Made by a program: the position numbers and the translations under genes
Source: Chiloscyllium plagiosum
Taxonomy: Eukaryota
Reading direction: 5' to 3'
Assembly (NCBI RefSeq): GCF_004010195.1
Contig: NC_057758.1
Location: forward strand, 1,046,983 to 1,110,982
DNA length: 64,000 bases
Part shown: positions 48,130 through 49,281 of the stretch, piece by piece
How the letters are laid out: every line of letters starts with the position of its first letter
Numbering within the stretch: the stretch's first letter is position 1
The notes under the pieces: generated by a model
The model's database searches: none
What the model was told of the DNA's origin: nothing
What the model saw: the letters and a program-made list of their open reading frames with translations, nothing else

Positions 48130-49281
48130 GGTAATGCCTTAGTCACTATGAAAGGTCACTCTCTCCTCGGCTATTTCGAGCGTCTTCGAAAAACCTCCAC
48201 GTACACCCAATCCCCGGGAGTAATAGGTCCTTCCTCGTTGCGGTTTCCTTTGTGTTTCCTGTAGGTAGATAGTCTCATGTATCATAGTCAGCTGCTGCAT
48301 ATATTGCTTAAGTTCCTTGCTTAACCACTCCAAGCTAGGTCCTTCGTATGGGCCTCTCCACCTGTGTACTGGCAAAAGTCTACCTATGAGCATCTCAGTG
48401 TTAGATTGGTCATGCGCTATGTCTGCATGCGATAACTCATTAATGCCATCGGCAGCACATCAATGCAATTAAGGTTGGTGCTTGTGCAGACCTTGTTTAA
48501 TTTGGCTTTCAATGTCCCATTAATCCTTTCCACCATACCTTGTGACTGCGGATGATAGGTACTAAGTTGTTAGACTGATATCCCTTATTTACTAGTAATG
48601 TTACATGTGGTGCGGCGCCTGGTACTCTTCCCCACTTTTCGAGGCACGCATTTCTCTCTATTTGCAGGATCATTCCCTGCTCCCCTAATACTACTGCTTC
48701 ACTTCTCAAATGTTGCTGAGCAGTGACTTCCTGCTGCCACTGCCTCTCCAACACCTAATCCTGAGACTCATCAATGATCACTGTACAGTGCATTTCAGAC
48801 TTAAGTGGTCTTGTTTTAGTCAACATCATCAACACTTCTGCTTCCCACATTCCCAAAATACCTTGAATATCACTGGCTATATCCCCATCTAATAAACACT
48901 AACATTTTAACTTCTTGCATCACTAATTGCTTATTGACCTTTTCTACGACCAAACCTTGCCATGCCTACCTAACAAGTTAATTGGCGTCTCTTTAGACGC
49001 TAATATTGGCAGAAAAACTCCCTACTTTCCATTTCTAATCTCACTGGAGCTGTAAATAGAGTTAACTGTGATTTCCTTGAGAACCCTACAGTTTCAACAA
49101 ATTTACTTAACATGAGAAGGTGAGAGACATAATGCAGCTGTAAACAAGTGGATGTAGCTCGAATGTCTATTACCACCGGTGTCTGCTGTCCTTCTATATT
49201 AACTTGTATTACTGGTTCTTGATCAGCCTCCCATGATACTATAGGTTCGTGCCCCTTTCCACCAAGGTTCTCAGGTCATCC
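48130..49281 (-). pseudogene. pol: ERV pol remnant: protease, 2H-like domain, [RT/RNaseH deleted], integrase C-half
   Basis: EPVIQVNIEGQQTPVVIDIRATSTC (DTGA decayed to DIRA, 49156-49167), MHCTV..PHVTLL, then YHPQSQGMVERINGTLKAKL and PGDWVYV. Confidence 0.85.

What the first reader, a model, noticed from the sequence alone, without database searches (positions are those of the whole stretch)
48560..48900. 2H-phosphoesterase-like domain between protease and RT position in a shark ERV pol
Seen: directly after the protease, one minus-strand frame reads M-H-C-T-V (His codon 48790-48788) and then P-H-V-T-L-L (His codon 48607-48605). The two His are 61 codons apart with a single TAG between them. 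Established: paired Hx(T/S)-hydrophobic motifs define the 2H phosphoesterase superfamily, whose viral members (coronavirus NS2, rotavirus VP3 C-terminus) cleave 2'-5' oligoadenylates. I recall similar inserts in some fish retroviral polyproteins, so this may extend a known feature rather than be wholly new. Inference: the ancestral virus encoded a phosphodiesterase, possibly an innate-immunity antagonist or an RNA-end processing enzyme. The domain survived the deletion that removed RT.
Basis: partly seen in the sequence, partly recalled or inferred. Interest (0 to 1): 0.78.

Follow-up and report, generated by a model that had tools for sequence, protein, structure and literature searches.

The report
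Broken CNPase-like domain in fish retrovirus
A dead retrovirus in a probable shark or ray genome carries a broken copy of a phosphodiesterase domain already reported from fish retroviruses, whose job in the virus still seems untested.

Summary
In detail: HCTV and PHVTLL lie in one minus-strand frame, 61 codons apart with one stop, between protease and a half integrase of a decayed LTR-gag-pro-env-LTR provirus (43969-53199). The motif pair alone is not beyond chance (8 such pairs in the window), but homology and fold are clear. The stretch is 51% identical to a stingray protease-domain-RT ORF, and dozens of fish ERV relatives exist, 45 of 55 with both motifs. An intact relative folds like vertebrate CNPase (Z 16-17) and fungal tRNA-ligase CPD (Z 13), far above NS2/VP3 2-5A enzymes (Z 7-8.5). 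So it is the CNPase-like 2H domain already reported for fish retroviruses, inherited together with protease. Two corrections: the domain did not survive intact (the deletion removed its C-terminal quarter, and its N-terminus has a frameshift and stop), and 2-5A antagonism is unlikely because teleosts lack OAS/RNase L yet keep the motifs. Most likely the ancestral virus packaged a 2',3'-cyclic-phosphate phosphodiesterase in Pol; cGAMP cleavage is the main rival. New member of a known kind; I found no test of its function.

The parts
52456..53199 (-). 5' LTR
   Evidence: 85% identical over 752 nt to 43969-44716; K2P 0.16 over 738 sites
52429..52446 (-). primer-binding-site-like 18-mer starting TGG, about 10 nt after the 5' LTR
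   Evidence: sequence and position; likeness to a tRNA-Ser 3' end is recalled, not tested
49500..51300 (-). decayed gag-like region (approximate bounds)
   Evidence: inferred from position between leader and protease and from partly open frames; no convincing Pfam match
48960..49260 (-). degenerate retroviral aspartyl protease (active-site motif altered, frameshifted)
   Evidence: Pfam RVP E 0.042; tblastn with P0002 51% over 74 aa, E 5e-21
48557..48905 (-). CNPase-like 2H phosphoesterase domain, truncated: first strand in another frame with a stop, one internal stop, C-terminal quarter deleted
   Evidence: 51% identity over 110 aa to P0002; profile positions 10-121 of 163, E 6e-30; own model's best match is CNPase, Z 4.9
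48776..48790 (-). first catalytic motif HCTV(I)
48755..48757 (-). in-frame TAG stop between the two motifs
48593..48607 (-). second catalytic motif HVTLL
48555..48575 (-). junction of the internal deletion that removed the end of the 2H domain, RT, RNase H and the first half of integrase
   Evidence: 2H homology ends and integrase homology begins, in another frame, within this stretch; no retroviral RT/RNase H remnant in the window by tblastn with 5 relatives
48390..48560 (-). second half of the integrase core
   Evidence: Pfam rve_3 E 0.006; tblastn P0074
48123..48221 (-). integrase C-terminal domain, MLV type
   Evidence: Pfam MLVIN_C E 1e-4
46349..47910 (+). LINE fragment inserted in env, opposite strand
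   Evidence: RVT_1 E 2e-22 on the + strand; very high contig depth up to 47910; copies elsewhere in the window. 'CR1-like' is my recalled label
45083..45385 (-). env transmembrane subunit remnant
   Evidence: Pfam TLV_coat E 9e-4
44719..44725 (-). short polypurine tract before the 3' LTR
   Evidence: sequence
43969..44716 (-). 3' LTR

Best explanation
The stretch is a dead remnant of the CNPase-like 2H phosphodiesterase that a clade of epsilon-like fish retroviruses carries in Pol between protease and RT. Shown: identity of the domain, its place in Pol, its fold class, its co-inheritance with protease, and that this copy is broken. Inferred: in the ancestral virus the roughly 165-residue domain was made as part of Gag-Pro-Pol, packaged into the particle at Pol stoichiometry and probably cut free by protease. 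Its two Hx[TS] motifs form a metal-independent acid/base pair that, as in CNPase and fungal Trl1 CPD, opens 2',3'-cyclic phosphates to leave a 2'-phosphate and a free 3'-OH. The likely use is healing cyclic-phosphate RNA ends made by host RNases (packaged tRNA primer or viral RNA) or clearing 2',3'-cyclic nucleotides. Odds: about 0.95 for the identity, about 0.6 for this substrate class; which RNA is the physiological target is a guess.
For: Homology: 32 hits at E<=0.001 among 1.84 billion representatives, 31 real and 1 repeat artefact (P0001); best is P0002, a Hypanus sabinus ORF with protease, domain and RT start. 40 hits with a profile, many annotated with RVP and RVT_1. Both motifs intact in 45 of 55 relatives that cover both, His-His spacing 58-69; 16 of 20 ORFs that also hold the protease. 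AlphaFold model of intact relative P0006, pLDDT 88.8: Foldseek best E 8e-07 to CNPase; VIA wide CNPase Z 15.9 (rmsd 3.3, 165 aligned), next 9.4; second look CNPase Z up to 17.0, fungal Trl1 kinase-CPD 6u05 Z 13.2. ESM Atlas nearest clusters are tRNA_lig_CPD (31-55% of members) and 2H-SAK, score 0.93-0.96. Viral fold library: best hits are a 1072-aa unnamed entry (E 4e-14) and WEHV-1 and WDSV envelope polyproteins (E 9e-11, 4e-09). Protease and 2H identities covary over 21 sequences (Spearman 0.67, Mantel p about 0.0005). Prior reports.
Against: No activity data. Identity to CNPase is only 12-15% and a shared fold shows no substrate; 2H enzymes switch substrates often. The window's own truncated model is weak (pLDDT 70, pTM 0.47; Foldseek E>=0.58; Z 4.9), so the fold call rests on a relative that is 30% identical. 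The closest relative P0002 has Ala in place of Thr in motif 1. The Atlas recognition value (1857) was below its threshold, so that score is weak evidence. Protease cleavage sites and packaging were not tested. Whether an RT can prime from a 3'-OH next to a 2'-phosphate is unknown to me.
Confidence: 0.6

Rival explanations
1. The domain is a cyclic-dinucleotide (2'3'-cGAMP) phosphodiesterase carried inside the particle, which blunts cGAS-STING sensing of reverse transcripts or destroys cGAMP packaged into virions.
For: Other viral 2H enzymes do this (penguinpox cGAMP PDE Z 6.6, phage Acb1 Z 8.0). cGAS and STING are present and virus-induced in zebrafish. The same fold appears in the Env polyproteins of WDSV and WEHV-1, so location next to RT is not required; that it lies in their long cytoplasmic tail is recalled, not tested. 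Sensing of retroviral DNA by cGAS and packaging of cGAMP in virions are recalled.
Against: Structural similarity to the cGAMP enzymes is half that to CNPase/Trl1 CPD. No paper joining retroviruses, cGAMP and '2H phosphodiesterase' was found.
Confidence: 0.2
2. The domain has a mainly non-catalytic role: an RNA- or nucleotide-binding module, or a decoy against the host restriction factor CNP.
For: Host CNP is an interferon-stimulated inhibitor of HIV-1 assembly through Gag binding. 10 of 55 relatives have lost a motif residue.
Against: CNP's Gag-binding residue D72 lies outside the region the viral domain matches (mouse CNPase 160-378). Both catalytic motifs are kept in 45 of 55 relatives at about 30% mean identity, and most losses can be post-insertion decay.
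Confidence: 0.1
3. The domain is a 2-5A phosphodiesterase that antagonises OAS/RNase L, like coronavirus NS2 and rotavirus VP3-CTD.
For: Same superfamily (MHV NS2 Z 8.5, VP3 Z 7.7). An elephant shark OAS is listed in PMC6307210, so 2-5A may exist in cartilaginous fish.
Against: OAS and RNASEL have no counterpart in teleosts, yet 9 named teleost ORFs keep both motifs. NS2/VP3 descend from AKAP7-like PDEs (abstract), a different branch (AKAP18 Z 7.4 versus CNPase 15.9). RNase L in sharks was not checked.
Confidence: 0.07
4. The motif pair is chance in decayed DNA, or this copy is a host-co-opted working gene.
For: 7 other such motif pairs occur in the window. The main frame has only one stop in 109 codons.
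Against: 51% identity to an intact ORF at the same place in Pol excludes chance. Stop, frameshift and C-terminal truncation, with similar decay in protease, integrase and env, argue against a working gene.
Confidence: 0.02

Closest known systems
CNPase-like 2H domain of fish epsilon-like retroviruses and ERVs (Basta et al. 2009 and Mazumder et al. 2002, seen only as cited in PMC4977317 and PMC9503650)
   Same: Same host group and virus class, same fold class; relatives show protease-domain-RT order. That the published case lies between protease and RT in ZFERV/SSSV-like viruses is recalled.
   Different: Here in a probable cartilaginous fish; the cited passage speaks of ray-finned fish. This copy is broken and truncated. 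No direct sequence comparison with the published elements was possible.
WDSV and WEHV-1 envelope polyproteins (A4GTG3, Q9WHI8) and unnamed Q2VF30_1
   Same: Best structural matches among predicted viral proteins, E 4e-14 to 4e-09, 18-25% identity.
   Different: In WDSV/WEHV-1 the domain is in the Env polyprotein, not Pol. [quoted passage not shown]
Vertebrate CNPase (CNP) catalytic domain / goldfish RICH
   Same: Whole-domain structural match, Z 16-17, rmsd about 3 A over 160-165 residues; two Hx[TS] motifs.
   Different: 12-15% identity; about 165 versus 210 residues; no N-terminal PNK-like domain; Pfam CNPase only E 0.084 in 1 of 63 members.
Fungal Trl1 CPD and viral tRNA_lig_CPD-like domains
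   Same: Z 13.2 to 6u05; nearest Atlas clusters; weak hits to giant-virus RNA ligase proteins.
   Different: No ligase or kinase partner in the retroviral polyprotein.
Coronavirus NS2 / rotavirus VP3-CTD (2-5A PDEs); poxvirus cGAMP PDE and phage Acb1
   Same: 2H superfamily fold and motifs (Z 6.6-8.5).
   Different: Much more distant than CNPase; different branch of the superfamily.

Membership tests
2H phosphoesterase superfamily | two Hx[TS]-hydrophobic motifs | tested here: met
   window HCTV and HVTL; 45 of 55 relatives keep both
2H phosphoesterase superfamily | two-lobed 2H fold | tested here: met
   intact relative P0006: top 21 VIA rows Z>=6.1, next 3.9; window piece alone weak, but its 13 best rows are all 2H proteins
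2H phosphoesterase superfamily | metal-independent phosphodiesterase activity | not testable with these tools
   no assay
CNPase/Trl1-CPD branch | structure closer to CNPase and Trl1 CPD than to LigT, AKAP7 or Acb1 types | tested here: met
   Z 16-17 and 13.2 versus 9.4 or less, on a predicted model of a relative
CNPase/Trl1-CPD branch | sequence-level family match (Pfam CNPase, tRNA_lig_CPD) | tested here: inconclusive
   below cut-off: best E 0.084 and 0.016 in 1 of 63 members; none for the window piece
CNPase/Trl1-CPD branch | 2',3'-cyclic phosphate hydrolysed to 2'-phosphate | not testable with these tools
   no assay
Fish retroviral Pol CNPase-like domain | lies between protease and RT in an env-bearing LTR element | tested here: met
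   protease upstream, env and LTRs present; RT follows in relatives P0002, P0040, P0042; RT deleted in this copy
Fish retroviral Pol CNPase-like domain | orthology with the elements described by Basta 2009 / Mazumder 2002 | tested here: inconclusive
   papers not held; structural hits to WDSV/WEHV-1 and Q2VF30_1 support it
Functional (intact) 2H domain in this copy | complete open domain | tested here: not met
   internal stop, N-terminal frameshift and stop, profile positions 122-163 missing
NS2/VP3/AKAP7-type 2-5A PDE | nearest structural kin is AKAP7/NS2 | tested here: not met
   Z 7.4-8.5 versus 15.9 for CNPase
NS2/VP3/AKAP7-type 2-5A PDE | cleaves 2-5A | not testable with these tools
   no assay

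The most novel reading that the evidence does not exclude
A large clade of aquatic retroviruses carries a fifth, uncharacterised virion enzyme, captured once and kept in Pol across teleost and elasmobranch hosts (and placed in Env in the walleye viruses), that either repairs nuclease-damaged tRNA primer ends or destroys cGAMP inside the particle. It would be a retrovirus-encoded counter to RNase or cGAS-STING defence, and it is missing from the main text of three recent surveys of viral 2H enzymes.
Probability: 0.3. Interest if true: 0.65.

Novelty: new member of a known kind. Interest (0 to 1): 0.33.

Why it matters
The domain itself is known from fish retroviruses, so this locus adds only a broken copy and a probable extension to sharks and rays (two separate elasmobranch lineages in the tree). 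What remains open is function: my searches found descriptions but no assay of any retroviral 2H domain. The fold ranking (CNPase/Trl1 far above NS2/VP3) and the lack of OAS/RNase L in teleosts narrow the candidates to cyclic-phosphate healing or cGAMP cleavage, which is a cheap in vitro question on intact natural homologs.

Tried and rejected
Pfam and PDB sequence searches with the window piece found nothing; several stretches were read in the wrong frame and were redone. A profile search of the PDB gave only two chance hits. Word-based searches among longer proteins found nothing, so no full-length named Pol was retrieved. IMG/VR scans found no relative. No host genome is held, so other copies could not be read in full. 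Contigs from three species labels cover 48560-48900 at roughly 80-90% identity, with about 2-18 contigs at the listed positions per run, which shows a multicopy family; the output did not show the motif codons or whether the deletion is shared. No RNA holder was listed; about 2% of one single-cell polyA run gave no reads over 48004-49114, too little to use. P0001 was dropped as a tandem-repeat artefact. LTR dating is unusable: K2P 0.16 gives 37 to 365 million years for rates of 2.2e-9 to 2.2e-10. No target-site duplication was resolved. Earlier scan findings: none returned. Main texts of PMC11410667, PMC10835031 and 10.1101/2025.08.21.671373 have no occurrence of 'retrovir'; their supplements were not read and may list retroviral 2H domains.

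Full report
Observation. As a motif pair this is not beyond chance: a loose scan finds 8 such pairs in the six frames of the window, this one included. Pfam and PDB sequence searches with the piece were blank.

Surroundings. The stretch lies in a decayed provirus on the minus strand. Two LTRs, 52456-53199 and 43969-44716, are 85% identical. Between them are a primer-binding-site-like 18-mer and a short purine tract, a gag-like region (position only), a degenerate protease (RVP E 0.042), the domain, the second half of the integrase core (rve_3 E 0.006), an MLV-type integrase C-terminal domain (E 1e-4), a LINE fragment on the other strand, and an env TM remnant (TLV_coat E 9e-4). No retroviral RT or RNase H remnant was found with 5 relatives as queries. 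The deletion junction falls at about 48575-48555, where 2H homology ends and integrase homology starts in another frame. Its size, roughly 900 codons, is inferred from typical Pol length and was not measured. Contigs of runs under three species labels cover the domain at about 80-90% identity, so the family is multicopy. The host species was not determined.

Relatives. phmmer over 1.84 billion representatives gave 32 hits at E<=0.001; 31 are real and P0001 is a repeat artefact. The best, P0002, is a Hypanus sabinus (stingray) ORF that reads protease, domain, start of RT; it is 51% identical over 110 residues without gaps. A profile of 22 hits found 40 proteins, many from named teleosts, one from the ray Narcine, often with RVP and RVT_1. 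Of 75 aligned relatives 55 cover both motifs; 45 of 55 keep both, spaced 58-69 residues. Among 20 ORFs that also hold the protease, 16 keep both, 9 of them named teleosts. Protease and domain identities covary (Spearman 0.67; Mantel p about 0.0005, 21 sequences) and the two trees share their main groups; the window groups with the stingray ORF (FastTree support 0.96 for the domain, 0.78 for protease), apart from the Narcine lineage. This fits one old capture inherited with Pol; the trees are midpoint-rooted and no donor was tested.

Fold. The window piece folds weakly (pLDDT 70); Foldseek gave no match under E 0.001, but the 13 best VIA rows are all 2H proteins, CNPase first at Z 4.9. The intact relative P0006 (30% identical to the window piece) folds well (pLDDT 88.8). 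It matches CNPase at E 8e-07 and Z 15.9 (rmsd 3.3, 165 aligned), with the next chain at 9.4, MHV NS2 8.5, Acb1 8.0, rotavirus VP3 7.7, AKAP18 7.4 and penguinpox cGAMP PDE 6.6. A second look gives CNPase up to Z 17.0 and fungal Trl1 kinase-CPD Z 13.2. The Atlas returns tRNA_lig_CPD and 2H-SAK clusters, with a low recognition value; sub-threshold Pfam hits in the alignment are also 2H families. Among predicted viral structures the best hits are an unnamed 1072-residue entry and the envelope polyproteins of WEHV-1 and WDSV.

State of this copy. It spans profile positions 10-121 of 163. The missing end holds the long C-terminal strand of the model (residues 158-175 of P0006), and the first strand sits in another frame with a stop. 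With the internal stop this makes a working enzyme very unlikely. Protease, integrase and env are decayed too. The domain was cut by the deletion; it did not survive it whole.

Mechanism. Shown: family, position, fold class, decay. Inferred from the known chemistry of 2H enzymes (passages of PMC9503650): a metal-independent two-histidine enzyme that opens 2',3'-cyclic phosphates. As part of Gag-Pro-Pol it would be packaged with RT and the tRNA primer. I put cyclic-phosphate healing at 0.6, cGAMP cleavage at 0.2, a non-catalytic or anti-CNP role at 0.1, 2-5A cleavage at 0.07. Against 2-5A: OAS and RNASEL have no teleost counterpart while cGAS and STING are present (passages of 10.1101/693333), yet teleost ERVs keep the motifs. 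For it: elephant shark has an OAS (passage of PMC6307210). Against a CNP decoy: the Gag-binding D72 of CNP (passages of PMC10761555) lies outside the matched domain.

What is known. A review states that epsilon-like ERVs of ray-finned fish sometimes encode a CNPase or macro domain, citing Basta 2009 (passages of PMC4977317). Another states that 2H domains occur in fish retroviruses and WDSV, citing Mazumder 2002 (passages of PMC9503650). Neither primary paper was held; that Basta places the domain between protease and RT is recalled. The first of two parts of the elephant shark ERV paper (PMC4422223) does not mention the domain. I found no functional test in searches; three recent viral 2H surveys have no 'retrovir' in their main text (term look-ups only; supplements not read). 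Most subscription papers are outside the library.

Verdict. Real, correctly assigned to the 2H superfamily, but a known feature of fish retroviruses, here as a broken copy in a probable elasmobranch. New member of a known kind; interest 0.33, resting on the untested function of the family rather than on this locus.

Noticed in passing
BFVD hits Q9WHI8, A4GTG3: The same fold is in the Env polyproteins of WEHV-1 and WDSV, whereas this clade has it in Pol: two placements in fish retroviruses, both plausibly inside the particle.
   Followed up: no
window 3693-6285 and 60321-64000: A diverged 31-nt satellite block is duplicated about 56.6 kb apart at 96-97% identity; a partial copy at 53394-53802 lies next to the 5' LTR. 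The provirus may sit in a large tandem duplication.
   Followed up: partly
window 52274-52336: A 63-nt SINE-like piece (94% to 20394-20456) sits in the 5' leader of the provirus.
   Followed up: no
window 57787-59000: 118-nt inverted repeats, 98% complementary, 978 nt apart: a young MITE or DNA transposon.
   Followed up: no
P0055, P0060, P0066, P0074: Several teleost relatives also keep the 2H domain while lacking much of RT; these may be real deletion derivatives or gene-model artefacts.
   Followed up: no
P0056 cluster: A second elasmobranch lineage (Narcine bancroftii, 5 members) carries the domain with both motifs but groups with other teleost ERVs, not with the window.
   Followed up: partly
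window 25224-25723: 500-nt assembly gap of N.
   Followed up: no
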